Positions 5,551 through 62,003 of a stretch of 64,000 nucleotides of DNA are shown in pieces. Within the stretch, counting starts at the first letter, position 1. Each line of letters opens with the position of its first letter. A program made the position numbers and the translations under genes. This DNA is from Macrostomum lignano (taxonomy: Eukaryota): assembly GCA_002269645.1 (NCBI GenBank), contig NIVC01000679.1:124001-188000 (forward strand), given 5' to 3'. A model generated the notes under the pieces. The model was given only the letters and a program-made list of their open reading frames with translations, ran no database searches and had not been told where the DNA came from.

Positions 5551-8500
5551 TTAACGATGCGCTCCGCCTCGAACTGCCGCAGCTCGGTACTGTCTGGGCA
5601 GACGCGGAACTGCCCGACGCCAGTAGTCTCTGTCGTCACTGCTCAGCTCAGCAACATCGCGAAGGAAGGAATTTGTATTTTTCCACTTTTTCACCTGTTT
5701 TTCCAATTTCTAAAGTAAATGAGGAAAGGTGTTGCGATCCATTATCTGCCGGCCATGATCGATTCCTTCCGAGGTAATTCGTTAGGCTTTTACACTTTCA
5801 CTGCTGCATTGTTTCATTGCTGAGGATGTCAAAAGCTTATGGGGGATTGCTCGGATGCCAAGGCTTGTATGGGGGTAAATTATTGAAATGCTGAGGCCGT
5901 CTTTCAGGGCCGATAGTGACTACTAGCAATCAGCGCCCCCCCCCTTAAGAAGGAAACAGAGAATAGAAAATATTTTTTGAATAAACTACATGTAGCTTCT
6001 GACCTCTCAGCCCTGGCGTCTCAGCAATTCTCCCCGTAAGCCTTGACATGACCGTAAATGTACTTACATACTAGTATTTACATATTTTATTTCATTTGCG
6101 TTCTAAATGAACAGAATTTCAATACCAACTATAGAAGTCTTACCTTGTCATTCAATCGGCGAAAACAGACGCATTCCGGGTCCAACAAAGGGAAAAATTG
6201 GCCTTTGTAGCGAGCAATTTTAGCCACAGGTCCGTAGCTGCAGTAGCCGCACAGCAAATCCACACCAATCATATCCATTCCGGGAACCTTTTTGATCTCG
6301 CCTCCATGTTGACCAACAATGCGTTGACCTCCAGTGAACATGTCGGCATCCAGAACGACGCGATGGATTCCGCAAATCAATCGAAGCCGAGTCGAATCCG
6401 ACAGTTTTTCTTCACACTTGCGGCACAGAATTTCGTGGTCGCTATCAATGATGACGTCACTTCCGATAGGTGTGCTATTATTAGCACGTTTTTCCTCTTC
6501 GTCTTTCAGCGCCTTTTCCTGGTAATCCAGCATCTGCAATTGAAAGCTTTTAGCAGTAGCGTATAAAGCTTATAGAAGGCTAAAAGAATTTTAACAAATT
6601 TAATTGTTATGACTTCTTCTCTAGCGGAAGACAGTGAGCCAAGACCTCTTAAGTATTTGCTCTCTTAACCGAGCGTCTTATTTCATGTTATCGTAACCTT
6701 CTTTTATATATCTTTTATATACTTTTTTGCGATTGAATTCGTCCAAACTGCAAAACCTTTCGTCCACTAACGCTTTCTTAATGGGAGCTAAATTAAGATT
6801 ATACCATAGACAACTGTGTTCACGCAAAACGGTTCATCCAGTTTGTAAAACATTTCGTCTAAACCCTTCGTCCAAACAGCTAACAGCTAAACGGAGCGAC
6901 TTTATTTGATATCACGAGATATTGAACAAAGCCTGTCAGACAGCCTAAGTTTTGGCTGTCTTTCTCTTGATCCCAAGGATATCGGCCAGTTGTTTCCAAT
7001 CGCGGCCTTCTTCAACAGCCAAGGCTAATCGCCTGCGGTCTTCGTTTGACACTGGAGGGTAGGGGCCTCGGTTCATCTTCGACTGTTTTGCCGGGTTCAG
7101 AATGGAAGATATGCGTTGCTGTAGCTGTAGTGGTAGCAAAAGCGAACAGTCAATTGGGTGTTAACTATGGTAGGAACAGTACACTCCGTCTCTAGTCTAG
7201 GGGACGAAATGTTTTACAAACTGGATGAACCTTTTTGCGTGAACACAGTTGTCTATGGTATGATCTAAATTTAGCTCCCATTAAGAAAGCATTTGTGGAC
7301 GAAAGGTTTTGCAGTTTGGACGAATTCAATCGCAAAAAAGTATATTTTCCCAGCTTGAAGCATTGCTTCTTTAGCTCATGGCTGCATGGGTGTGTGTGCA
7401 ACTGAATCGTCTATGGCCACACCCAACATTAATAATGCACAAGAACCGAACCTCAAGTAAAGAAGAGAATCAGAGAAGAGAATTCATAACTTTAATTGTC
7501 TATAATTGATTACACCTGCCCTAATGAGCAGATGTACAACCGACAGCTCAGCCGCAGCTATTGCGCGGCGCATCTGAAGGCTGCGTACGGCTGTTCAGTC
7601 AAAGGACTGGGAGATCGCCACACACCCTCAATTACCCCAGCTAATGCTGACACCTATCTTACAGCTGGGTAAACTGAAAAAAAATTAGAGTGAAGTATCT
7701 TTTCCAAGAATTGTTCCGAGTGGGTAGAGAATCGAAAACCCGACCTTCTAGTCATGAGTCCGACACTCTAAACACTAAGCTAAAACCCTCTCACTAGGCT
7801 ATAAAACCAGGGACTACTCAAAGATCCTCTTAAACCTCGCAAACCAGCCTCGTAAAAACTTTGCCATGATTTGCCTAGTTTCCCGTCTCGATGTTATAGT
7901 AGTCCCTGGCTATAACCCTCGAAGAGGCACAGCACAGAGAAAAACAAAGTTGTCCTTAAGTCAACACAGCGATTGAAACTGTCGACAAAAAACTGAAAGA
8001 TTCTCACCTTGACTACCAACTCTTCAGTCGTTAAATCAGTAACGCACGCCACTGATTGCTGCATCATTGCATCGCGCAGCTCATTTTCGCGTTCCTTGTG
8101 ACGCAGCGCCTCCTGTGTCTCAGCTACAATCACGTAATAGGCGCTGTTTTTGGCCCGGCACCGGCCTTTGGTCTGCACCATGGCGATTTCGTTTGTCACG
8201 TGACAGTAGCGCACCACCAGGTTGCAGTCCGGTATGTCTAGGCCTTCTTCCGCCATACTGGTGCAAGCAATCACTTTGTAGTCGCCTTGCCGGAAGCCCT
8301 CAATGCGAGCCTGCTGCTCAGAAGCATTAGTGCCTCCGGAAGCGTCGCTTGAAGTTGCGCCAGTCACATAGGCAGCCGGTAGATGCGGTAGTTGCTCGTT
8401 TAAGAACTCAGTAATCACCTGAGCGTAGATTTTCCGTTGTACGAAAACAATCGCTCGCGAGTCGGCTTGCGAGTTGAACTGGTTGCGAAGGATTTCCACG

Positions 8501-11500
8501 AATTTGTCCAGCGGAGGACTCGACTGCAAGCGATAAACCAGTCATCAAAATAATGGAACGTTGCATTTGGCTAAATGCACTCAATAACAAACTTACCGAA
8601 GCCTCTTTGGTGTCGCAGAATCTTTCTAGCGGCCCGATCAGGCTATGCAGTCGCTGCCGCAGTTGACTCTCCGCCTCGCAGACTGGGGGCTTAGCCAGTT
8701 CGTCCACAGCTCGAAGTTCTTTCTTGATGTAGCGCCACGCACCTCGGGGATTGTAGAACTGCGCAATCATATACGCTTGATTGAATGTGTCCAGATAACG
8801 ACTGCAGGCGAACAGATCTTTGCCCATCTCTTCGTCTGCCACTTGGTGAATTTTGTACTTAACATCGGAGCAGTAGTTTGTGTAAGTTGGAGTGCCTCTT
8901 GGCGGCGCTGATGCAATCTGGAGGGCTTCCGGCTCTGAGTTTAGCAGCGAGCTCCGATTGCTATATAGCAGCTTCTCCCCAAGGTCCATCAGCTCGTTTA
9001 AAAATTTAATGAATACGTCTTCCGAGCTCTGTTTAGCAGGTACCGAGAGGATTTGACAGTCTTGATCTGAGTTAAATTTAAATAGTGACTGAAGATAGCG
9101 CTGCACAGTGACAGGGTAGGGGCAGTCAAGATTGGCGCACAGTTGAACAAGATGCTCCTTGGCATCCTCTGGTCCCTTGGCTTTGCCGGTGCCTTGAGGT
9201 GCAGGTTTTTTGGACGTTTGGATGTTTTGGGTGTTTAATTGGCGTTTTTGTCCACTGGCAGTAGCGTCCTTACAGATCAGACACAATGGACAGTAGTGTC
9301 CTTACAGATCAGAAACAATGGACAGTAGTGTCCTTACAGATCAGACACAATGGACAGTAGTGTCCTTACAGATCAGACACAATGGACAGTAGTGTCCTTA
9401 CAGATCAGAAACAATGGACAGTAGTGTCCTTACAGATCAGAAACAATGGACAGTAGTGTCCTTACAGATCAGAAACAATGGACAGTAGTGTCCTTACAGA
9501 TCAGACACAATGGACAGTAGTGTCCCTACAGATCAGACACAATGGACAGTTGTGTTCTTACAGATCAGACACAATGGACATTGAGTGTCCTTACAGATCA
9601 GACACAATGGACAGTTGTGTTCTTACAGATCAGACACAATGGACATTGAGTGTCCTTACAGATCAGACACAATGGACATTGAGTGTCCTTACAGAGCAGA
9701 CACAATGGACATTGAGTGTCCTTACAGATCAGACACAATGAACAGATCAGGCATCGTTAGACGTGAAATAGCTTAAAAACAAGAATTTAATAATTCATGC
9801 CTCTCTAGCATTTTACCTGGACTGGCCGTTAGCCCAAGAATCCGTGGCAGGCGGGTTCCTCGACAGCTTTCCGATTGATTCTCTTGTTTCAGATCTCTCT
9901 TCAGTCGCAGGTAGTGCATCATCACTTTCATACTGGCGTGGCTCTTTGCACAATTGTGGCATTCGTCGAATATGATGAGGCGGAAATCGGAAATGTTCGC
10001 AACTGTTTTTCTATCAAGCTCGTTTAATAGAATTTGGGTGCTAATGACCAGGATGGAGTTTTTCTTCATAGACAGGGCGAATGGCTTTCGATTCTTGTTG
10101 TCTTTGCCTCCCAGGATTAGGTCAACTCTGTCCCGCCAAGGTGAGGGCAGGGCGGACCTGAACTTGTCGTATTGCTGCTGAACCAGCTGATTAGTGGATG
10201 CCAGAAGTGCCACCTAAGATATTATGGCGTTTGAAAATGGAACAAATGTTCAAACATTAAAAATGAAACATGGTTGTGTTGAATGATAAACTAATTGCTT
10301 TCAGCTCTGACCTTTGCTTGGGGCTCGGCCTTGAGCAGCCGCAGAGCGACGTACACGGCTACCAGAGTCTTCCCAGAGCCAGTGGGCGCGATCACTATCG
10401 AGTTGCGACCTAACAGGGCCGGCTCTGCCAACTCCAGCTGGTAGTCGCGGAGCTGCTGGCCGACGAGCTCGTTGTTGCCAGGCAGCTGAGACCCAGGCGG
10501 CGATGGCGGCTCCTGATTGGCTATTCGCTCAAGCTTGTAAATGTCTGAGTCGAACTTCAGTCCGTTGAGATCGAACCACCGGTTCGATTGGTCGACGACC
10601 GACTTTTTGGCCTCCTCAAACTCCGGACTCGACACTGGATTGTCGAGCTTGGGGCGAATCGCCGAGAGCTCTGAGATGAAGGGGTGGCAATGCATTGAGA
10701 CTGAAATTGATCATCCTAGAGTTCCCATTTTGGGCAAAGGCGTGTCTTCCAGCTGCTTTTATTCAGTGATTTGACCAGCTATTTCAGATGCAATGATCTG
10801 GTCTCTCACCTGACTCAAAGTTTTGGCCGAACGGTGCAATGGTGTCGAGCAGATCGACTGAGCTCTCGAGGTCAGCGATCGCAGCGAGGATGAGGTGCTC
10901 AAACCAGTCGTGAGGTGCACAATCAATGAGCTGGCGAAGCACGCAATGGACGTCTGCGGGTTGAGGCGACAAGGGGATATCTGATAAGGGATCTGGAGAT
11001 GGGATCATGTCACCATGACCATGTGACGGGATCAGGTGACAGGAATCAGAAAGACAAACAAAGGATAGCACCTCAGTAACACAGAAGCTCAACAATTCAG
11101 CAAATCTGCATCTGAGCATTCCAATACCTCAGCGAGTCTGCGAGTCTTCTGACAACTGAGCAGCCCAATAACTCAGCAACTGAGCAGCCCCAATAACTCA
11201 GCAACTGAGCAGCCCCAATAACTCAGCAACTGAGCAGCCCCAATAACTCAGCAACTGAGCAGCCCCAATAACTCAGCAACTGAGCAGCCCAATAACTCAG
11301 CAACTGAGCAGACCAATAACTCAGCAACTGAGCAGACCAATAACTCAGCAACTGAGCAGCCCCAATAACTCAGCAACTGAGCAGCCCCAATAACTCAGCA
11401 ACTGAGCAGCCCAATAACTCAGCAACTGAGCAGACCAATAACTCAGCAACTGAGCAGACCAATAACTCAGCAACTGAGCAGCCCCAATAACTCAGCAACT

Positions 11501-12268
11501 GAGCAGCCCCAATAACTCAGCAACTGAGCAGCCCCAATAACTCAGCAACTGAGCAGCCCCAATAACTCAGAATCTGAGCAGCCCACTCAGCAGCACAGCA
11601 TCTCAGCTCAGCTCACGTGCTGCACTCCCGTCGCCGTCAAGATCTTCAGAAGACTTGCTGAAGTCCTGCAGTGACTGGGCGAAGACGTCTCTCTGCAGTG
11701 CTGCGGGAAGGCTGGCCGGCACTGACAACTGCAGCCGATGAAGACGCGGCAGATCCCGCCGATTGTCCAGGTGCAGAATGTGCAGCAAGTTCTCCTGTGC
11801 TGCTGTTGCGTGGGTTCACAGGGAGATGAGTTGACATTTATTATGCTTTCTCGCATGTACAGCTCAGCATGACAGCACTTACAGCTTGTGATGCAGCGCA
11901 GAAGCTGGCTGAATGCGTCTTCGATTGGCAATTGGCCGACAACCTGCAGCAATTCGGACCAACTGCTGGGCCGATTCATGGTAATGCCTTGAGTGGGATG
12001 AGCTGCATTGGGTGGAAATTCGATCAGGAGCAGACATTGCTGAGTAACGATAATTATTGTCAATTTCAAGAAATTTATCGATTAGATGAATTACACTTTT
12101 TACAGGTTTTCAAAGTTTAGTATTGAGGCACTCACCATTTTTAATATGATTTTCGTACACAGCCACAATATTGCCAATGTCAATTAATCCTTCAATGTCG
12201 TCTTTAAATATATGGAAAAGAAGGCTAATAAGTCCTTCGAGTTCAACGCTTTCTTCGCCACCGTCCAT
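5551..12268 (-). CDS. RIG-I-like receptor A (putative 2xCARD-like N-terminus + DECH helicase + Zn-binding CTD), 999 aa; exons 12268-12136, 12002-11883, 11802-11617, 10953-10810, 10670-10312, 10213-9817, 9192-8597, 8523-8008, 6533-6144, 5709-5551
   Basis: Motifs [27 protein letters not shown]...[30 protein letters not shown]; CTD with CRKC...CGYC and a terminal KKWK motif. All ten exons have GT-AG boundaries with matching phases and total 3000 nt. Confidence 0.92.
6722..7340 (-). mobile_element. Internally deleted Tc1/mariner-superfamily (IS630-like) element with ~140-bp TIRs, in RLR-A intron 8
   Basis: 6722-~6860 is the reverse complement of ~7200-7340, and both ends are flanked by TA. Internal minus-strand [46 protein letters not shown] (7076-6945) resembles a transposase N-terminal HTH. 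Confidence 0.75.
7480..7790 (-). mobile_element. tRNA-derived SINE remnant
   Basis: Minus strand has a degenerate A box (tagcttagtgtttag) and B box (ggttttcgattct), followed by a SINE-core-like 'tcagtttacccagctgtaaga' segment. Confidence 0.5.
9262..9745. repeat. 32-bp minisatellite in RLR-A intron 6
   Basis: Tandem cttacagatcagacacaatggacagtagtgtc. Confidence 0.95.
11150..11595. repeat. 24/25-bp minisatellite in RLR-A intron 3
   Basis: Tandem gagcagccccaataactcagcaact; counterpart at 18560-18985. Confidence 0.95.
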
Positions 12269-17883: not shown

Positions 17884-20800
17884 ATGGACGGTGGCGAAGA
17901 AAGCGTTGAACTCGAAGGACTTATTAGCCTTCTTTTCCATATATTTAAAGACGACATTGAAGGATTAATTGACATTGGAAATATTGTGGCTGCGTACGAA
18001 AATCATATTAAAAATGGTGAGTGCCTCAATACTAAACTTTGAAAACCTGTAAAAAGTGTAATTTGTAATTCATCTAATCGATAAATTTCTTGAAATTTGA
18101 CAATAATTTTCGTTACTCAGCAATGTCTGCTCCTGATCGAATTTCCACCCAATGCAGCTCATCCCACTCAAGGCATTACCATGAATCGGCCCAGCAGTTG
18201 GTCCGAATTGCTGCAGGTTGTCGGCCAATTGCCAATCGAAGACGCATTCAGCCAGCTTCTGCGCTGCATCACAAGCTGTAAGTGCTGTCATGCTGAGCTG
18301 TACATGCGAGAAAGCATAATGAATGCCAACTCATCTCTCTGTGAACCCACGCAACAGCAGCACAGGAGAACTTGCTGCACATTCTGCACCTGGACAATCG
18401 GCGGGATCTGCCGCGTCTTCATCGGCTGCAATTGTCAGTGCCGGCCAGCCTTCCCGCAGCACTGCAGAGAGACGTCTTCGCCCAGTCACTGCAGGACTTC
18501 AGCAAGTCTTCTGAAGATCTTGACGGCGACGGGAGTGCAGCACGTGAGACTGAGCTGAGATGCTGTGCTGCTGAGTGGGCTGCTCAGATTCTGAGTTATT
18601 GGGCTGCTCAGTTGCTGAGTTATTGGGCTGCTCAGTTGCTGAGTTATTGGGGCTGCTCAGTTGCTGAGTTATTGGGCTGCTCAGATGCTGAGATATTGGG
18701 CTCCTCAGTTGCTGAGTTATTGGGCTCCTCAGTTGCTGAGTTATTGGGCTCCTCAGTTGCTGAGTTATTGGGCTGCTCAGTTGCTGGGTTATTGAGCTGC
18801 TCAGTTGCTGAGTTATTGGGCTGCTCAGTTGCTGGGTTATTGAGCTGCTCAGTTGCTGAGTCATTGGGGCTGCTCAGTTGCTGAGTTGTTGGGGCTGCTC
18901 AGTTGCTGAGTTGTTGGGGCTGCTCAGTTGCTGATTTATTGGGGCTGCTCAGTTGCTGAGGTATTGGGGTGCTCAGTTGCTGTGGTATTAGAATGCTCAG
19001 ATGCAGAGTTGCTGATTTGCTGAGCTTCTGTGTTACTGAGGTGCTTTCATTTATCTTTCTGATTCCTGTCACATGACCATGATCACATGACCCCATCTCC
19101 AGATCCCTTATCAGATATCCCCTCATGTCGACTCAACCCGCAGACGTCCATCGCGTGCTTCGCCAGCTCATCGATTGCGCACCTCACGACTGGTTTGAGC
19201 ACCTCATCCTCGCTGCGATCGCTGACCTCGAGAGCTCAGTCGATCTGCTTAACATCATTGCACCGTTCGGCCAAAACTTCGAGTCAGGTGAGAGACCAGA
19301 TTATTGTATCAGAAATAGCTGGTTGAATCACAGAGCAAAAGCAGCTGGAAGACTCCACCTTTGCTGAGATTGGGAACTCAAGGATGATCAATCTCAGTCT
19401 CAATGCATCGCCACCCATTCATTTCAGAGCTCCCGGCGCTTCAGCCCAAGCTCTACAACACGGTGTTGAGTCCAGAGTTCGAGGAGGCCAAAAAGTCGGT
19501 CGTCGACCAATCGAACCGGTGGTTCGATCTCAACGGACTGAAGTTCGACTCTGACACTTACAAGCTTGAGCGAATAGCCAATCAGCAGCCTCCATCGCCG
19601 CCTGGGTCTCAGCCGTCTGGCAACAACGAGCTCGTCGGCCGGCAGCTCCGCGACTACCAGCTGGAGTTGACAGAGCCGGCCCTCGATAATGCCGGCCCTC
19701 GCAACTCGATAGTGATCGCGCCCACTGGCTCTGGGAAGACTCTGGTAGCCGTGTACGTCGCTCTGCGGCTGCTCAAGGCCGAGCCCCAAGCAAAGGTGGG
19801 TGAAAAAAGCAAAACTTTGTTCTGTTATGTTTGGGTATAAGTCGGACCGCGGTTTCCATCTTTTTTGTACATTTTTTGGTTCAGGTAGCATTCCTGGCCT
19901 CTACAACGAACCTGGTGCAGCAGCAGTACGAAGAGTTCCGCTCGGTCCTGCCGCCGCCTTGGCGCAACAGCGTCTGCCCGCCGGTGCACGGTGGAGCGGA
20001 TTCGAGAAATCGAATGCCTTTCGCCCAGGCTCTGAAGGGGCACTCTATCATTGTTATGAGCACTCAGATTCTGCTGAACGCTTTGAACCGCGAACCCGAC
20101 AGCTTCAACGGCCTGGGCGTGTCGGCATTTCGGTTAATTATCTTCGACGAGTGTCACAATTGCTTAAAGGACCACCCAAGCAAAGGGGTGATGGTGCACT
20201 ATATGCGGCGAAAGAAGATTCTTGAATCGTCGGTTGAAGAGCAACAGAAAGGAAGCAAGCTGCCGCAGATTCTGGGACTGACGGCCAGTCCAGGTGAAAG
20301 CTGCTAGGAGCAACTATAGCCAGAAGATAACACTAGGGGGGGAGCCGGGAGTTTAAGTAAGGATACCAGAAACCCTCAAAGACTTAGACAGTGCAGTTTG
20401 TAACAAGGGACGCTTGAGAGATACTAGATTACCCAAACAATGCAAGGGACATTAAGAGAACACTATCGATAAAAAAACGGTACCTAGGCCAAGAAGCATC
20501 TCAGAGTCGGGGTCCACGAGAACTGCCCGCAGACGATTTTCCCGTCGAGATTTGCCCGCCGAGATTTTCCCGCGAGTGAATTGCCCTCGAGCGAATTGCC
20601 CGCCGAGTTTTTTTCCCACCGAGGTTTGTCCGCAATGCTTTTTTCCTTCAAAATCTGCCGAGTGGCTAAATACGCTCAGGAAAAAAGCATTCAACATATC
20701 ACTTTATGAACTAGAATCGACTTGCACAGTTTACTAGCATACGTGTAATAACTCGATCTATTTAGTCTACTTGAGTTAGTAGCAAAAATGGCTAACGCAA

Positions 20801-23800
20801 CGGCTTTTGGACGACTCTTACGATTCGCACGCGATGCGCTCGTGACTCAACAGTTGCATTACAGTCGCTTGAGTCTTCAAATAACATCAGAATCGCTATA
20901 ACCACTAGTGAGTTGTTCCTACGAACCTTAATATAGATGCTAGAGAACTCCAAACAGACACTACATGTATAGAATATTGGAGAACTACAACGGAGAGCAC
21001 TAGAAAACCGTAGCTATTCAAGATAATTCAAAGCCTAATTAGAGGCCATTAAATACACCCAGTAAAAGTACAACCGCACAGACTAATGCGCTAACATCTT
21101 AAAACATTCGTACAAACAAGGCACCGGCAAAGCATCGCGACTCGAGGCCGCCGTGGAGCATCTAATCAAGCTATGCGCCAATCTCGACTGCCCATATCCA
21201 GTCAGTGTGCAGCGCTGCATCAAGTCGCTCAATGAAGTGACATCAAATCCCGATTGCCAGATACACTATGCACCTGGCGATCCAACAAAAGTCGACGTGT
21301 TTATCAACATGCTAAACAGATTAATGAACGTTGGCGAGGGCCTTCTGCGCGACTATTGCGATTCACTTGAACAGTGGCAGAGTGAAGGCCTGCCAGTGTC
21401 GTCTGTGCCTCCCCGAGGCACTCCCGCGTACTTGAACTACTGCACCAATGTGAAGTACAACGTGCACAACATCACTGATCAAACCGTTTGCAAGAATATA
21501 TTAGCCTGCAGCAGGTATCTTGGCTGCTGCAACGAGGCTCAAATGATTGCGCAGTGCTTTCGCGCAGTGGACGCGTTGCGCTATTTGGAGACGGAGCTGC
21601 GAACCGAGGATGAGATGGCAAAGCCACCGGCAAGCGAGGCTGAGGAAAGACTGAGACGGCATCTGGATGACGTAATGCAACAATTGATCAGGTTCTGCGG
21701 CACAAAGGAGGCTTCGGTGAGGAACATGGTTACTGGGTCTAGGGATTTTTTAGTTCTGATAGTACGAGTATATTGAAAATGGACGCAGGATGAGTAGAGG
21801 TTTCTTTGACAGTGCAGTCATTTGGAAGTAATGGGGGTAGACAGCATAGAGGCTGATTTTTTATGCCCTTTACTCGCAAGACTCCAGACCTTCGTATTAA
21901 CCTGTAAAATGAACTCCTTCGTATGTTCCAGTCCAGCCCACCGCTGGACAAGCTAGTCGAAATTCTTCGCGAGCAATTCACCGGCCAGCCAAACAGTCGC
22001 GCTATCGTTTTTGTAAAACAGAAATTTTACGCTCGCGTTCTGGCCGATTTTGTAGACGAGTGTGCGGAACTGCGTCTTAAGGCTACCTACGTGACAGGTG
22101 CAACATCTGGCGAGTCGACGGGAGGCACCAACGCGGCTGAGCAGCGGGCCAGACTTGAAGACTTCCGACGCGGTCTCTACAAAGTGATCGCTTGTACGAG
22201 TGTCACTGAGGAGGGCCTGGACATCCCCGACTGCAACCTGGTGGTGCGCTACTGTCACGTGACTAACGAGGTCTCCATGGTGCAGACCAAGGGCCGCGGC
22301 CGGGCCAGAAATAGCGCCTATCACGTGATTGTAGCGGAAACGCAGGAATGGCTGAAAGATAAAGAACGCATCAATCAGGAGCGAGATGCCATGATGTCCC
22401 AGGCGGTGAGGACGGTTGCTGCCATGTCAGCAAGGGAACTGGAGATTCAGGTGAGAGATTAACATATACATGTAAATAATCCCGAATTGGGTCGATTTGG
22501 TATGACTCCCAGCTTTGATGCCTCCTGCTTGCAGATGCTCGAATATCAAGTAAGAATGATGAACACAGATGAGGATAACCAAGCGGCTGGAGGCGGAGAC
22601 GTCAATCAGGCCAACAACAACCGAGGTCAAGTTCTTGACAGCGATCACGACATTCTGTGCAGCAAGTGCTTCACTCAGCTGTCACATTCGACTCGACTTC
22701 GTTTAATCGGCGACATCCACCGGGTTGTTGTCGATGTCGAGATGTTCGCCAGCGGCGGCCGACTTCGCGGCCAAGCTGGCGGCGAAGCCAAAAGGGTGCC
22801 CGGCGTGGAAGTAATTGGCGTTGATCTAGTGTGCGACAGCTGCGGCTTCAAGGTTGCTAAGGTTGTAAGCTACGGCAGACTGTTCTTCCCGCTGCTGACC
22901 GTCGAGGCCGTGCTGTTTCGTCGGTCTATTACAATGGTATGGAACTGCCTGTAGAAATTAGAAGTTTGAGTTGCTACTGTTGCTGTGGATATGATTGGAG
23001 GAGGGTGCGACAGGACAGAAGATTGGGATGGATGGGGAAAGAAGGAGTTAGAGAAGAAAGCAGATGGAGAGTAAATTGATGAGAGTGGACAAGCTTCTTG
23101 TTGATCTCAGCTAAGGGATAAATGAATTGCCCGATGAAAACGGTATCTAAGCTAAGAAGCGTACCAGAGTCACTTGCGTCGCCTTACAGTCGTTGCAGGT
23201 AACACAAAATAGGAAAGAAATGACTCTAGACGACTCTAAAACGATGAGATGAAATGGTTAAAGTCACCAAAAATTCGTCACCAAAGAAGTCACGAAGTGT
23301 TTTGTTGTCTGTGACTCTGAAATCGACTCTGGTGCCGTAAAGAGTCGTATTTGAGGCGTGCTAAAGTCGCTGTAGTCACTGAGTTGTGTTTAAAGCGCAT
23401 TTGCGTCGCTTGATGAATTGAGTCGTATCTGTAGCAAAAGTTATAACGCCAACTCAACGATTCTTGGACAATTTTTTCATGATTTACGCTTTTGCGACGC
23501 AAGTCGCCTCCGTCGCATTTGACGCGTTTGAGTCGTTAAAAAGTCACAAGAGTCGCCCAGAGTCACAAGTAAAGTTGTTTGCAACGACTTTTTAGCGATT
23601 CTTGTCACGGTACCGTTTTCAACGGGTTGAGACTTGAGAGCGCACGCTGTCATTTTATTAGAGCAAATGCAGGTACGGAATACTCGTGAAATTCTCACTA
23701 GATAGTCAGCTTTATCAGTAGCCTGGCAACCCTCATTACCACATGCAGGAAACGGAAAGGCCGGCAAGAAAGTGGAAAGCAACAGAGAGTTTTCTTCGGC

Positions 23801-23889: not shown

Positions 23890-24733
23890 TTATCTGATAT
23901 GATATAGTTCGCGTCAGTCAATATATTAACTTGAAATTTACTCAGACCAGCGACAAAGATAACATCTGTGCGAGTAGTTAACACAGAATGACTCAAGTAT
24001 AAACATGTAGTGTTGAAACGAGATCCACTTGGTTTCTTAGAAAATCTTTTGAAGGCTGTTCTGTGAAATTTTATGTTTCTAAAAAACGACAGGCGTATCA
24101 CTGATTTGTGGTAAAAAATTTTCCAAGTGTTAAATTAGGTCATTCATGACTGCAAAAAATTAAAAAATCAAGTAGCTTGTATTAGTGAGCTAAGATTAAA
24201 TCTGTTTACATTATCTGTAGAAAATTAACATTCTTTTTAACCCTTTTAAATCGCATATTCAGTAAATTGCTTTGCTAAGCAACTCTCTTGAAATTGTTAC
24301 GAACGGTGTTGTGTTATTTTAGATTTTAAATAAATAAATGAGCAACAACTCCGTTAATAACTACATTTGCAGTACACATAAGAAGAGCACTATATATCAG
24401 TACTGAACATGTGTTTTTATTAAAGTATATTTTGCTATTTACCAAAGTATTGTAAAATGCATAGTACTGCCGTTATCTGAACATAACCTAATAATAACAG
24501 CAAGAACTGGTTGGATCAAGATTACCGGTAGGCATTAAATTTCAACGAAACATGCCAATAATTATTAGCAGTAAGTTATAGGTAGAATCTGCCTCTCGGC
24601 TTCATCTAATTTGGGTAGAATCAGTCTCCCAAGCTATTAAAAATAGAACTTTCAAATTGAAAAATCATAATCTGTACAATAGTCAATGAGGCTTGGTCAA
24701 AACCGTTGTTATGACGACACAAAACCACTGAAA

Positions 24734-25745
24734 TTATTTTCTACTACTTGTAGTAGACCTTCGATATCTGGCAGCGTCACTTCTGGACGGTGGGCTACGG
24801 CTACGGCTACGATTTCTTCGACGATTTGGATTAGGAACTTGTCGATCCTTGCTGCCCGGATGTCCGTCGCGGCTACGGCTACGGCTTCGGCTACGGCTAT
24901 GACTATAATTCTTTCTACGATTCGTGCTAGCGACTTGTCGATCCTTGCTACCCGGATGTCCATCGCGGCTACGGCTACGGCTATGACTATAATTCTTTCT
25001 ACGATTCGTGCTAGCGACTTGTCGATCCTTGCTACCCGGATGTCCGTCGCGGCTACCCGGATGTCCGTCGCGGCTACCCGGATGTCCGTCGCGGCTACCC
25101 GATGTCCGTCGCGGCTACCCGGATGTCCGTCGCGGCTACCCGAATGTCCGTCGCGGCTACCCGGATGTCCGTTACGGCTACGGCTACGATCAGACGGTTG
25201 GTAATCCGGATAATTTGGATCGATTTTTTCGCGCTTCACTCGCACAGGAGCGGCTGAGCCTCCAGGAGCGGCGGGCGGCGAGCGCCGACGGCGAGGCGGA
25301 CTCAAATCGCCGTCATGTCCAACTCAGGCGCGCAGCCGCGCTCCTTAAGCCGCTGCTTCACCGGATCATCGTCCGGTTTAATCAGCTCCTTCACCTTGTA
25401 GCTTTCCACGTGATTAACCCGCAGAGTGCGACCCACAACTCGGGCTCCGTTGAGGTTGTCGCATGCCAGCACGGTTGATCGCTGATCTTCGTAGCACAGG
25501 AAAGCGAAGCCTTTGCTCTTGCCAGTGGACTGGTCCCGCACCAGGTTGACGTTGACCACTTCGCCGTATTGGGAGAACACGCAGATTACGTCGCCTTCGG
25601 TGAGTTCATAGTCCAAGCCGCCAATGTAGATCCAAGCGGAGTCTTTGAACATCGAGTGCCAGGAGCTTTGGGTGTTCGCCGTGCCCAGTTGGAGCTCCTT
25701 CTCAGTCATCAGGCGCTGATTGCGGACTTGGGTTAATGGGTTCAT
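24734..25745 (-). CDS. RBMX2: RBMX2/Snu17/Ist3 (RES complex RRM protein with RS-rich tail), intronless, with two apparent 1-nt deletions (~25316, ~25100)
   Basis: MNPLTQV...SWHSMFKDSAWIYIGGLDYELTEGDVICVFSQYGE...KSKGFAFLCYEDQRSTVLACDNLNG is diagnostic. Restoring 2 nt gives a 338-codon ORF with an SRSRSR / GHPGSRD tail ending at TAA 24734-24736. Confidence 0.9.
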
Positions 25746-27108
25746 GATGCCTGGTCTGAGCGCTGCAGTGAGATGGCGAGATATGCTCACATTTATTTGG
25801 CTTTTATCACTGTAGAAATATTAATTAAGTAAGGAGAATAGCGGCCACTGAAGGGTCTGAGGGGAGGGGCAGCAGTAGCTCGTAGTAATAGAAAATTACG
25901 TCCATACCCCATTTTTCAATTGCAAAACACGTAATAAGGTACCCGTCAGAAATTTTATTACGCACATACCTTATTTTTGTATTAAAAATCAAATAATAAG
26001 GTACCGAACCAAATGGTTGGGTATTCTACAGGAATTCCAACTAAACTGCAGTGCAGCCACAAAGAACGAGAAAGAAAAGACCCCGACACCGATCAACCAA
26101 GTTGCTGAAAAACGACATAGCTATTTCTGCATTACAAGAATAGAGGAAACACGCACCCACAAAGAACAAAAGAAAAGAGCTTAATAAATTGCAGAAGTCA
26201 AATTGTGCCACAATCCCCCTGCAAGCAAAACCCAGCTCAGAATAGGCTACAGGCAGTAAATAAGCCGCCTGCTGCGCCTTATACTTTCTCCCCATACTGC
26301 CTTTCCTACCAGGAGTCATTCAAGACCCCAATTTTTTAATTTTCAAGAAAAGACCATTGAGAATTACGAACGATACAAACTCCTATTTTTTATTTTTAAA
26401 CGTATTTGAAATTTACCAGCCAAATATATACATACTTCAAAGATGGGACAAAAAGTTGCTAGTTTAAGACAGTAGTAGGCCCCAAATATCTTAAGTTATT
26501 CGGCTCGGGTATACATTCATATTTTGCATTTCTAACATTCGTAAGCCACTAAACTGTCTTGATTGAATGCTTCAATATCATTTTTTCGTTGTCCAACCTG
26601 TTCATTTCTGCAGTTCTTCGCCACCGTTCCTGTTCGTTGTACTATCACTTGCTCAAAAAACTAAGTATACTTGAATTTAACGGACTAAAGTATAACACGC
26701 CAAAAGACATAATCAGTTTTCAATTCTCAGTCACTGATCGACAAACCAATCACATCCGAAAAAACCGGGTAATTGTAAGTGTTGCTGTGACGAGATCCTT
26801 CTGAGCTCGGTACTGACGGCCATGCACAATAATAAATTGAACCTTCGTAGTGAGAAACAGTCTTGGGGTCGAATCGACTTGACTTGTATTATTCTATATA
26901 TTTGAACAGATCGGATACAGTTTTAGTATCATGACGTTAAATTCTTTATGGTAAACTAAGGCAAACGAACGCAAAATTGCGATATGACAGTCTTTTAAAT
27001 AACTTTAAAATTCCCTAATGAATAGTGGATTATTACAATACTAAGTAGACATTAATATTACCAAATTATATACGAACAACTACATATCAGTATCGTTCCA
27101 TTGCGCAG

Positions 27109-27426
27109 TCAGGCGTCCGCAGTCAAGTCCCAATAGTCCATAGTCGTCAGTTTTCCAGACTTCATCTCCCGGAAGAAAAAGCGGTACCACCCAGTACCTA
27201 GGGCTTGCACTGCCAAGGCATATTCGCCCTCGCAAACCGTGACATTCTCGGGGTACATATAACCCGGAGGCGGCCGCGCAAAGACCTCGTTCTTGAACGC
27301 TGCAAAGAGAGAAGACGCAGCCCATTAGTACCCGATCAGCTTCTTAATAAACAAAAAGCCCAATAATTGCTTACCGTCTCTCACATATCGCTCAGCTAGC
27401 TCTTTCTTTCGGGCGGATTTGTCCAT
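27109..27426 (-). CDS. Intact two-exon 80-aa ORF of unknown function inside the Maverick; exons 27426-27375, 27299-27109
   Basis: MDKSARKKELAERYVRD-A-FKNEVFARPPPGYMYPENVTVCEGEYALAVQALGTGWYRFFFREMKSGKLTTMDYWDLTADA*. The 75-nt intron has G|gtaag, a ctaat branch point and ttctctctttgcag, and the phases match. Confidence 0.6.
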
Positions 27427-27759
27427 ATTCGTAGTGAATGCAATGCTAGTGTAAAGACAAGACTAGAAAATTCTCGGCGAATACTGCAAAATGGGCCAAG
27501 TAGCGGTCCTGTTCGAGAGGTTAGTGTTGAGGAAGCACCAAAAATCGGCATCTGAAGGCATTCAAAAGGAGATACGACGCTCTTGTAAAAACTCTTTTCG
27601 AAGAGGGTAGTTCTGCGGAGGCTCTTCCATCGTCTTTAACGCCGGAAGAGGTGGAAAAGTTGTTCGAGTATGTTGTCCGAGACAGACCGCTAAAAAGACA
27701 TGGTAGGTGGCTTTGAATCTTTTCTCGCTTTTTTGCGTAGACGTAACGTGCATGGTGCT

Positions 27760-27914
27760 CAGCTCTATAAGGAAGGAAATGTAAAGTTGGAGTTGCGCTT
27801 CGCTCAAGCAACAAGCGCGTTGTCTACAATGTAATATTCAATGGTCTATTTGACAAGCAGCTGCAGATCACGGAGCTTCGCGACGTCGTGCCGGGCACAG
27901 CATGGAGGAAGTGA
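27760..27914 (+). pseudogene. C-terminal fragment of Polinton-type major capsid protein (frameshifted)
   Basis: LYKEGNVKLELRFAQAT / YNVIFNGLFDKQLQITELRDVV resembles the Polinton MCP C-terminal pattern (GxxxLExxFA...NVIxxxxFxxxxEIxxxRxV); it overlaps the protease ATG. Confidence 0.6.
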
Positions 27915-28451
27915 ATCTGAACATGTTGCAGAGTGCCAGTGACAGATTCTTGCGGTCAATTATTACAATTCTATGTATGAGATTGTTTGGTTTTGTCTTT
28001 TTGGGTGTGTATCCTCAGGACTCGATTAGAACTCTTGGACAATTACCTTTAGATGGTAAAGACTATTTCTTTGTGGCGAATACAGACACTTCGAATCTTC
28101 CTGGTAGGCATTAGGTTGCAGTTTGGGTGAGTAGCAGGCGGGTTAGGGGGGGGCCGTGGACGAAGGGTCGGGGAATATTTTGATTCGCTTGGTTTAAATC
28201 CGCCGGAAAATATTAGACGGTGGTTGGGGCGAGAATGTGGGGATTTTCAAAATTGGTCCTACAGCCGATTTGCTATTCAGGATCCTCGGACTGGACATTG
28301 TGGTATTTGGGTGTTGTTTTGTTTGTATTTCAAACTGACTCGTGGTGGTAGCCTTCGCTTCTTTTTAACGCGTATTCTTGGTTGTGAGCCTCGTCGAAAA
28401 AATGAATTTCGGCGCGTGTATTTTTGCCTACGACGCTTTACAGCACATTAG
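27902..28451 (+). pseudogene. Adenain-like (Maverick) cysteine protease, disrupted
   Basis: FLGVYPQD...FVANTDTSNLPGRH*VAVW...EYFDSLGLNPP...IQDPRTGHCGIW gives the His/Asp/Gln-Cys catalytic motifs. TAG replaces Trp at 28112-28114, and there is a frameshift near the G-run at ~28130. Confidence 0.85.
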
Positions 28452-28732
28452 TTGCCTCTGTTCTTGTAATGCAGAAATATACGGAAAGTGCGTTTTGGAC
28501 AAGTTGGTTGGTTGATCGAAATTTAGATCTTTTCTTCTTTTGAATTATTTGTGGGTGCGGTGCAGTGTAGTTAGGATTCCTGTTGTATACCCTACCATTT
28601 GGTTCGGTATCTTACTACTTGATTTTTAATAGGAAAATAAAGGTATGTGCGGAATAAAATTTCTGACGGGTTACCTTATTACGTGTTTTGCAATTGAAAA
28701 AATGGGTATGGACGTAATTTTATATTACTACT

Positions 28733-30180
28733 GGCAGCAGGCACAGAAGGATCTGTGGGGAGTGACACCAGACACTGAAGGATCTGAGGGGAGGGGCAGC
28801 AGCATGAAGGCACTGAAAGATCTGAGGGGAGGGGCAGCAGCCACTGAAGGATCTGAGGGGAGGGGCAGCAGGCACTGAAGAATCTGAGGGGAGGGGCAGC
28901 AGCCACTGAAGGATCTGAGGGGAGGGGCAGCAGGCACTGAAGAATCTGAGGGGAGGGGCAGCAGGCACAGAAGGATCTGTGGGGAGTGACACCAGGCACT
29001 GAAGGATCTGAGGGGAGGGGCAGCAGCATGAAGGCACTGAAAGATCTGAGGGGAGGGGCAGCAGCCACTGAAGGATCTGAGGGGAGGGGCAGCAGCCACT
29101 GAAGGATCTGAGGGGAGGGGCAGCAGGCACTGAAGAATCTGAGGGGAGGGGCAGCAGGCACAGAAGGATCTGTGGGGAGTGACACCAGGCACTGAAGGAT
29201 CTGAGGGGAGGGGCAGCAGGCACTGAAGGATCTGAGGGGAGGGGCAGCAGCCACTGAAGGATCTGAGGGGAGGGGCAGCAGGCACAGAAGGATCTGTGGG
29301 GAGTGACACCAGGCACTGAAGGATCTGAGGGGAGGGGCAGCAGGCACTGAAGAATCTGAGGGGAGGGGCAGCAGGCACAGAAGGATCTGTGGGGAGTGAC
29401 ACCAGGCACTGAAGGATCTGAGGGGAGGGGCAGCAGGCACTGAAGGATCTGAGGGGAGGGGCAGCAGCCACTGAAGGATCTGAGGGGAGGGGCAGCAGCC
29501 ACTGAAGGATCTGAGGGGAGGGGCAGCAGGCACTGAAGAATCTGAGGGGAGGGGCAGCATGCACTGAAGGATCTGAGGGGAGGGGCAGCAGCCACTGAAG
29601 GATCTGAGGGGAGGGGCAGCATGCACTGAAGGATCTGAGGGGAGGGGCAGCAGCCACTGAAAGATTTGAGGGGAGGGGCAGCAGCCACTGAAGGATCTGA
29701 GGGGAGGGGCAGCAGGCACTGAAGGATCTGAGGGGAGGGGCAGCAGCATGAAGGCACTGAAAGATCTGAGGGGAGGGGCAGCAGGCACTGAAGGATCTGA
29801 GGGGAGGGGCAGCAGGCACTGAAGGATCTGAGGGGAGGGGCAGCAGCCACTGAAGGATCTGAGGGGAGGGGCAGCATGCACTGAAGGATCTGAGGGGAGG
29901 GGCAGCAGGCACTGAAGGATCTGAGGGGAGGGGCAGCAGGCACTGAAGGATCTGAGGGGAGTGGCAGCATGCACTGAAAGATCTGAGGGGAGGGGCAGCA
30001 GCCACTGAAGGATCTGAGGGGAGGGGCAGCAGGCACTGAAAGATTTGAGAGGAGGGGCAGCAGCCACTGAAGGATCTGAGGGGAGGGGCAGCAGGCACTG
30101 AATGATCTGAGGGGAGGGGCAGCAGGCACTGAATGATCTGAGGGGAGGGGCAGCAGGCACTGAATGATCTGAGGGGTTAG
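28733..30180. repeat. 31-bp G-rich minisatellite (one orphan unit also at 25843-25873)
   Basis: Tandem gaaggatctgaggggaggggcagcagccact with variant units. Confidence 0.95.

Positions 30181-60563: not shown

Positions 60564-62003
<1,440 letters not shown>

What the first reader, a model, noticed from the sequence alone, without database searches (positions are those of the whole stretch)
25874..28732. Miniature Maverick/Polinton with complete termini and TSD
Seen: ggcagc|AGTAG...CTACT|ggcagc (6-bp TSD); ~290-bp TIRs, about 85-90% identical over the outer 170 bp and decaying inward; the last ~50 codons of a capsid gene overlapping an adenain-like protease with a Trp>TAG stop. There is no polymerase, integrase or ATPase. 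Established: Mavericks are 15-20 kb virus-like transposons with AG...CT ends and 5-6-bp TSDs. Inference: a 2.9-kb non-autonomous derivative mobilised in trans, marking an adintovirus-like lineage in this genome 2 kb from an RLR.
Basis: partly seen in the sequence, partly recalled or inferred. Interest (0 to 1): 0.78.

Follow-up and report, generated by a model that had tools for sequence, protein, structure and literature searches.

The report
Decayed miniature Maverick in a flatworm
This is a real but broken 2.9-kb leftover of a virus-like Maverick transposon in a flatworm genome: it kept both ends, scraps of two viral genes and one small intron-containing passenger gene, and shrunken Mavericks of this general kind are already known.

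Summary
Observation confirmed. 25874-28732 has ~280-bp inverted ends and a true 6-bp target duplication (removing element plus one copy restores the 31-bp period of the host minisatellite). The broken adenain-type protease and the last ~44 capsid codons (weak in plain HMMER) match Maverick profiles; capsid precedes protease as in 63 of 63 Maverick loci holding both. No integrase or penton signal. Public contigs show relatives 85-99% alike along the whole length, several other terminus-flank junctions and a diverged high-depth relative. Not shown: an empty site, a full-length partner, or that the big deletion preceded insertion. The arms differ by ~10%, so the insertion is old and dead. The RLR is 2.9 kb away behind another gene and looks incidental. 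Degraded and non-autonomous Mavericks are known; this scan noted two other mini Mavericks on other DNA.

The parts
25843..25873 (+). First unit of the host 31-bp minisatellite, left behind by the insertion; ends in the left TSD copy (25868-25873)
25874..26150 (+). Left TIR (~280 bp; 7-nt surplus at the very end; internal 49-nt direct repeat 25895-25943 / 25957-26005)
26151..27108 (.). AT-rich (36% GC) left interior; no match to the Maverick profiles tried; holds polyA-like signals on the minus strand at 26394 and 26340
27109..27299 (-). Exon 2 of an intact 80-aa orphan gene
27300..27374 (-). 75-nt GT-AG intron with branch-like motif and pyrimidine tract
   Evidence: the spliced product equals the annotated protein P0002
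27375..27426 (-). Exon 1 of the 80-aa gene
27531..27716 (+). ORF-X, 61-codon stop-free frame of unknown identity; not part of the capsid match; its frame appears conserved in a diverged relative
   Evidence: table 7 read by eye
27760..27914 (+). C-terminal ~44-50 codons of a Maverick major capsid gene, one frameshift
   Evidence: 27.2 against shuffle max 18.7 and tile max 20.1; weak (0.8 bits)
27902..28451 (+). Adenain-type (clan CE) maturation protease pseudogene, one stop and one frameshift
28451..28732 (-). Right TIR ending in (ACT)2
28733..28738 (+). Right TSD copy GGCAGC
28733..30176 (+). Host 31-bp minisatellite, ~46 units, the insertion target

Best explanation
A dead, internally deleted member of a multi-copy Maverick (Polinton/adintovirus-type) lineage of Macrostomum lignano. 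Shown: Maverick ends, a 6-bp duplication, the capsid-tail/protease module at the right end, no core enzymes, related copies elsewhere. Inferred: a Maverick retroviral-type integrase made the insertion (staggered 6-bp cut); the element was most likely already short, so the protein-primed polymerase and integrase came in trans from a longer relative that recognises the TIRs; the intron-bearing 80-aa gene is passenger cargo in the accessory region next to the left TIR; after insertion both arms and both viral gene remnants decayed in place.
For: TSD phase test. End motif, TIR length and 6-bp TSD fit intact Mavericks (PMC8097293 passages; PMC10748475 passages). Protease 67.9 against 30 shuffles 14.4 +/- 1.8, with a profile from loci found through the capsid gene. 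Capsid tail 27.2 against 60 shuffles 13.4 +/- 1.8. Gene order in 63 of 63 loci; 323, 289, 233 and 97 contigs laid, most under 99% alike; summed depth at least twice the flank in 19, 24 and 21 of 24 element bins in X3, X9, X1; 5, 5, 4 and 2 contigs join the TIR end to other flanks; the bin 27650-27765 that holds the presumed capsid deletion is covered 3.6-4.2 times the flank and no multi-contig loose end is listed there. GC3 of the 80-aa gene 0.64, host genes here 0.58-0.96, protease pieces 0.33-0.40; intron-bearing, GC-richer cargo beside the left TIR is described for nematode Mavericks (10.1101/2022.07.12.499685 passages).
Against: No contig spans the element; 219 loose ends and 965 pieces were not shown and the tool says summed depth is no copy number. 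Bin 26374-26489 is only 0.9 times the flank in X3 and X1. Related copies show different skips (43 to 333 nt), so the family is heterogeneous. Near-identical contigs (1-4 differences in 300-530 nt) may be the same insertion in another subgenome (subgenomes differ by 1.4-2.4%, PMC10733133 passages), not new insertions. No autonomous partner was seen. The plain HMMER capsid score (0.8 bits) lay inside the shuffle range (top 5.9). One capsid-tail piece has GC3 0.67 (30 codons), so the GC3 contrast is soft.
Confidence: 0.55

Rival explanations
1. A full-length Maverick inserted here autonomously and lost more than 10 kb by deletion in place; the related contigs come from long copies and from independently eroded remnants. 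Nothing was mobilised in trans.
For: Arms ~10% apart and three reading-frame breaks show long residence; 96% of vertebrate Maverick loci are degraded (PMC8097293); copy-specific skips and near single-locus depth in part of the left interior; a diverged high-depth relative seems to have more sequence before the capsid tail (X9 loose end of 189 letters before 27766).
Against: Close relatives cover the presumed deletion bin several times over with no listed multi-contig break.
Confidence: 0.36
2. An unrelated TIR DNA transposon that captured a Maverick fragment and a host gene.
For: TIR sequence itself has no database match (0 in viral contigs); 6-bp TSDs are not unique to Mavericks (own knowledge).
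Against: AGT-type ends, ~280-bp TIR and 6-bp TSD match Mavericks; the protease frame ends where the right TIR begins; no transposase remnant among the frames scanned.
Confidence: 0.04
3. Assembly chimera or consensus noise at a minisatellite edge.
For: Only 0.57 of sampled words at best are held by any run; at many sites no laid contig shows the window's letter (table 3), so some apparent decay may be allele or consensus error.
Against: TSD in exact minisatellite phase; a contig in X1 runs from the right TIR 30 letters into the same variant minisatellite unit (one letter short of the tool's bar for bridging); long contigs match the interior at about 99%.
Confidence: 0.05

Closest known systems
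Mavericks/Polintons of animals (adintoviruses; PMC8097293, PMC8502044, PMC10748475)
   Same: AGT-type ends, TIRs of a few hundred bp, 6-bp TSD, adenain-type protease directly after the major capsid gene
   Different: 2.9 kb against 12.7-24.6 kb; no pPolB, integrase, ATPase or penton; both viral genes broken; carries an intron-containing gene whereas core genes are intronless
Non-autonomous or polB-less Polintons (Polinton-1N1_DR named in PMC9341505; polB-less mobile polintons of Pieris in 10.1101/2025.02.07.637071)
   Same: TIR-bounded derivatives lacking replication genes
   Different: The Pieris elements are over 12 kb and shown mobile by presence/absence; that N1 means non-autonomous is my recall of Repbase naming; for this element mobility as a short unit is not shown
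Cargo-carrying nematode Mavericks (10.1101/2022.07.12.499685)
   Same: Intron-containing, GC-richer gene in the region next to the left TIR
   Different: Cargo here is an 80-aa orphan with no family, no known activity and no evidence of horizontal transfer
ASFV pS273R protease (PDB 6LJ9)
   Same: Best full-domain solved-structure match, E 6.5e-4 over 107 residues, His/acid/Cys motifs aligned
   Different: Distant clan relative only; here a pseudogene

Membership tests
Maverick/Polinton (autonomous) | Terminal inverted repeats of 46-1500 bp | tested here: met
   ~280 bp, 82%
Maverick/Polinton (autonomous) | 5-8-bp (usually 6-bp) TSD | tested here: met
   GGCAGC, phase test
Maverick/Polinton (autonomous) | (AGT)2//(ACT)2 or (AG)3//(CT)3 end motif | tested here: met
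   Right end exact; left end altered by 7 extra nt; related contigs start at the matching inner position 25882
Maverick/Polinton (autonomous) | Adenain-type protease | tested here: met
   As pseudogene: 23.3 and 16.3 bits against control maxima 6.8 and 10.9; 67.9 against max 18.4. Pfam itself gave no hit
Maverick/Polinton (autonomous) | Double jelly-roll major capsid gene | tested here: met
   Only profile columns 394-436 of 441; upstream extension not above shuffles; weak
Maverick/Polinton (autonomous) | rve integrase | tested here: not met
   47-sequence profile, no domain above 0 bits in six frames
Maverick/Polinton (autonomous) | Protein-primed DNA polymerase B | tested here: not met
   2-sequence profile and tblastn of L059 ORFs gave nothing; longest stop-free frame inside is 106 codons and there is no room for an 800-aa gene
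Maverick/Polinton (autonomous) | Packaging ATPase and penton | tested here: not met
   Penton 56-sequence profile negative; ATPase tested with one sequence only
Maverick/Polinton (autonomous) | Length 12-25 kb | tested here: not met
   2859 bp
Non-autonomous Maverick family | Several copies with related termini at different sites | tested here: met
   5, 5, 4, 2 contigs join the TIR end to dissimilar flanks in four runs
Non-autonomous Maverick family | Same internal deletion shared by independent insertions | tested here: inconclusive
   Depth and absence of listed breaks favour it, no spanning contig
Non-autonomous Maverick family | Autonomous partner with the same TIRs | tested here: inconclusive
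   A diverged high-depth relative holds capsid-tail and protease patches; its ends and enzymes were not seen; no genome held
Non-autonomous Maverick family | Empty site / insertion polymorphism | tested here: inconclusive
   Flank contigs stop at the minisatellite unit in all three DNA-like runs
Adintovirus Alpha/Beta class | OTU-PolB type | not testable with these tools
   No polymerase in the element; class definition from PMC8502044 passages

The most novel reading that the evidence does not exclude
A family of ~3-kb mini-Mavericks in M. lignano, spread in trans by a longer, younger Maverick subfamily, that shed all replication and virion functions but kept and multiplied a spliced, transcribed 80-aa orphan cargo gene under selection: a satellite-like cargo vector in a transgenic-ready flatworm model.
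Probability: 0.2. Interest if true: 0.65.

Novelty: new member of a known kind. Interest (0 to 1): 0.38.

Why it matters
It marks a Maverick lineage in Macrostomum lignano, for which three library searches and term look-ups in three Macrostomum papers found no description; Repbase/Dfam and subscription papers were not searchable. If the short form was itself amplified, it would bound the cis sequences a Maverick needs and show cargo spreading without the viral core. If it was deleted in place, it is one more fossil, useful only as a pointer to the longer family and to an orphan gene that the annotation treats as a host gene.

Tried and rejected
Own-genome search: no genome held. Pfam on 11 element frames and on the read-through protease: no relevant family; PHROGs nothing; Rfam nothing. 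Word-index homologue searches with the protease pieces: none of 29 and 21 candidates scored. Viral-contig scan with the protease N piece: one 12-residue match, L001, dismissed. TIR 23-mer: 0 in viral contigs, only the two arms in the window. Toxin A repeat rows are sums of insignificant stretches (0 passing stretches) and were rejected. My idea that the capsid remnant reaches up to ~27500 failed (12.2 against 11.6 +/- 1.3). Penton, P129 and PX113 profiles on the interior: best 21.7 for PX113 on 16 codons against 8 shuffles (max 17.8), too short and too few controls to accept. A 27-residue match of ORF-X to a 249-aa ORF of six near-identical viral loci (E 0.001) was not followed and did not recur at E<1. 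The 80-aa protein: 10 of 12 HMMER hits are long proteins matched on a short stretch, the three scanned are Ig-repeat proteins; Atlas features at most 0.86, structure TM ~0.6 to small unnamed phage proteins; single-sequence model pLDDT 64, no Foldseek match at E<=0.001, best VIA Z 6.3 to pseudopilins, a common helix-plus-sheet arrangement: no family assigned. No RNA holder was listed on record; X12 is only guessed to be RNA and no splice joint was among the joints shown. Empty-site signal at 25875 in X1 rejected as an internal minisatellite unit. The capsid-motif scan of viral contigs gave only 1 capsid homologue among 27 loci.

Full report
Observation. The stretch 25874-28732 (2859 bp) is flanked by GGCAGC on both sides. 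Its ends are inverted repeats: 82% over 282 columns by blastn and 87% over the outer 170 nt, where 7 of the misses are a 7-nt surplus at the left end; from 25882 inwards there are 21 substitutions and 7 gap columns in 205 columns. The right end is (ACT)2, one of the two common end motifs of intact vertebrate Mavericks, which also have 6-bp TSDs and 46-1447-bp TIRs (PMC8097293, passages). The element sits after the first unit of a 31-bp minisatellite of about 46 units in which GGCAGC occurs 41 times, so the TSD could have been chance. It is not: taking out the element and one copy gives a unit spacing of 31, as 39 of 42 spacings in the array; keeping both gives 37, which never occurs.

Viral remnants. 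Pfam found nothing in 11 element frames or in the protease read through with X at its two breaks. The ESM Atlas placed the C-terminal piece next to Preplasmiviricota and nematode clusters (0.95) and C5/C48 peptidases, and the PDB search gave ASFV pS273R at E 6.5e-4 over 107 residues with the His, acidic and Cys motifs aligned. A motif scan led to L059, a Maverick by Pfam (ATPase, rve-chromo integrase, adenain); its capsid gene gave 120 proteins and 80 loci. A 60-sequence protease profile from those loci scores 23.3 and 16.3 bits on the two pieces, against 6.8 in 200 shuffles and 10.9 in window tiles, and 67.9 against 14.4 +/- 1.8 in a frameshift-aware alignment. It does not extend upstream. 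In 63 of 81 Maverick loci both genes were present, and in all 63 the protease follows the capsid on the same strand, 60 of them abutting or overlapping. Integrase and penton profiles found nothing; polymerase and ATPase were tested with only one or two sequences, but no frame inside exceeds 106 codons.

On the minus strand, 27426-27375 and 27299-27109 form an intact 80-codon gene around a 75-nt GT-AG intron. HMMER over 1.84 billion representatives gave 12 hits; the best is the same 80-aa protein, annotated as Macrostomum lignano BOX15_Mlig002782g2, the second a M. lignano model 65% identical over exon 2, and the other 10 are short matches in long proteins. This names the host species; whether that gene model lies at this locus or at a sister copy I cannot tell. 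That annotation was built from RNA-seq, gave transcripts at least 95% alike one name prefix, and dropped transcripts overlapping annotated repeats (PMC5730564, passages), so the gene or a near-identical copy is probably transcribed. It has no family or reliable fold match. Its GC3 is 0.64, like host genes here (0.58-0.96) and unlike the protease pieces (0.33-0.40), though one 30-codon capsid piece reaches 0.67. Nematode Mavericks carry intron-bearing, GC-richer cargo next to the left TIR (10.1101/2022.07.12.499685, passages). Its intactness is not evidence of selection: three breaks in about 690 nt of viral remnant predict about one in 243 nt, so none has a chance near one in three (my arithmetic). 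A 61-codon frame at 27531-27716 is unidentified.

Other copies. No genome was held. 20 of 24 listed runs, from 8 studies of one organism, hold part of the stretch, at most 0.57 of its words. Four runs were laid at 85% likeness: 323, 289, 233 and 97 contigs, most under 99% alike, in all 30 bins. Summed depth is at least twice the flank in 19, 24 and 21 of 24 element bins in X3, X9 and X1, but 0.9 times at 26374-26489 in two of them (the tool warns that this is no copy number). 5, 5, 4 and 2 contigs join the TIR end to dissimilar flanks. At four listed sites where the two arms differ, most related contigs carry the letter of the opposite arm, two sites on each side, so both arms drifted after insertion. 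The protease stop is carried by 16.8 of 324.6 depth in X3 and by none laid in the other three runs, so it is private or rare. One diverged, high-depth contig family keeps ORF-X, capsid-tail and protease patches in order; its unaligned flanks read by eye as in-frame homologous sequence, and another contig keeps the capsid-stop/protease-start overlap. In X9 it has 189 unaligned letters before the capsid tail without the ORF-X patch, a hint of a longer capsid gene there. The closest contigs differ by 1-4 letters in 300-530 nt, and one in X1 runs 30 letters into the same variant minisatellite unit. The genome has three subgenomes 1.4-2.4% apart (PMC10733133, passages), so these may be homeologues; arm divergence of about 10% would then date the insertion before the subgenomes split (inference). 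At many sites no laid contig shows the window's letter, so part of the decay may be allele or consensus noise. No contig spans the element, no empty site was seen, and 219 loose ends, 307 letter differences and 965 pieces were not shown.

Mechanism. Shown: Maverick ends, 6-bp duplication, right-end capsid-tail/protease module, absence of core enzymes, related copies. Inferred from established Maverick biology (pPolB and retroviral-type integrase, PMC10748475 and PMC8502044, passages): the integrase made the insertion. Whether the short form or a long ancestor was the substrate is open. Coverage of the presumed deletion bin at 3.6-4.2 times the flank with no listed multi-contig break tips me to a short family moved in trans (0.55) over deletion in place (0.36). 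Either way this copy is now inert. The RLR ORF ends 2920 bp away behind an RRM gene and nothing links it.

Known and new. 96% of vertebrate Maverick loci are degraded; polB-less mobile polintons are described in butterflies (10.1101/2025.02.07.637071, passages); Polinton-1N1_DR is named in PMC9341505 (one passage; that N marks non-autonomy is my recall); Tlr1 has been called a non-autonomous polinton (PMC5499653, passages). A search for six phrases on non-autonomous Polintons returned only those last two papers. Searches for Macrostomum with Maverick, Polinton or adintovirus showed no description in their listings (the three co-mention papers were seen as listings only) and three Macrostomum papers contain neither term; supplements, Repbase and Dfam were not examined and may hold this family. 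This scan noted two other mini Mavericks, with ATPase cassettes, in other genomes (unchecked). Verdict: a real, well-bounded Maverick deletion derivative, not an autonomous Maverick; new member of a known kind; interest 0.38, raised by the orphan cargo and the hint of a young longer subfamily.

Noticed in passing
window 6132-12081 (minus) and 18094-22954 (plus): Two RIG-I-like helicase genes in divergent orientation with very similar upstream frames (11611-12081 against 18094-18555), apparently an inverted duplication; only the plus-strand copy was scanned with Pfam.
   Followed up: partly
window 24712-25745 (minus): RRM gene (Pfam RRM_1; RBMX2-like by my recall) with a repeat-expanded RS-rich tail; its first ATG lies 129 bp from the element's left end, so the insertion sits in its promoter region.
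   Followed up: partly
window 27669-28193, contigs of runs X9, X1, X12: One diverged relative at high depth (901.5, 165 and 10; about 18 and 7 times the flank in X9 and X1) keeps ORF-X, capsid-tail and protease patches in order; candidate young, longer Maverick subfamily. The run table lists longest records of 15-18 kb in these three runs, but it is unclear whether those records are ones laid here.
   Followed up: partly
window 27471 / 25882 (joint): In all four runs one contig joins sequence ending at 27471 to a TIR start: another copy with a nested or tandem family member just upstream of the 80-aa gene.
   Followed up: no
P0003: A second M. lignano gene model ends in a 65%-identical version of exon 2 of the 80-aa gene, so the cargo occurs at another, diverged locus.
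   Followed up: partly
L059:152-8324: Near-complete Maverick in IMG/VR (polymerase-like ORF, ATPase, rve-chromo integrase, capsid, adenain) with a 70-codon ORF between capsid and protease.
   Followed up: partly
whole window: 79 tandem-repeat rows, many 20-50-bp minisatellites, typical of this genome; a beta-tubulin-like ORF at 60567-61895 (name by recall).
   Followed up: no
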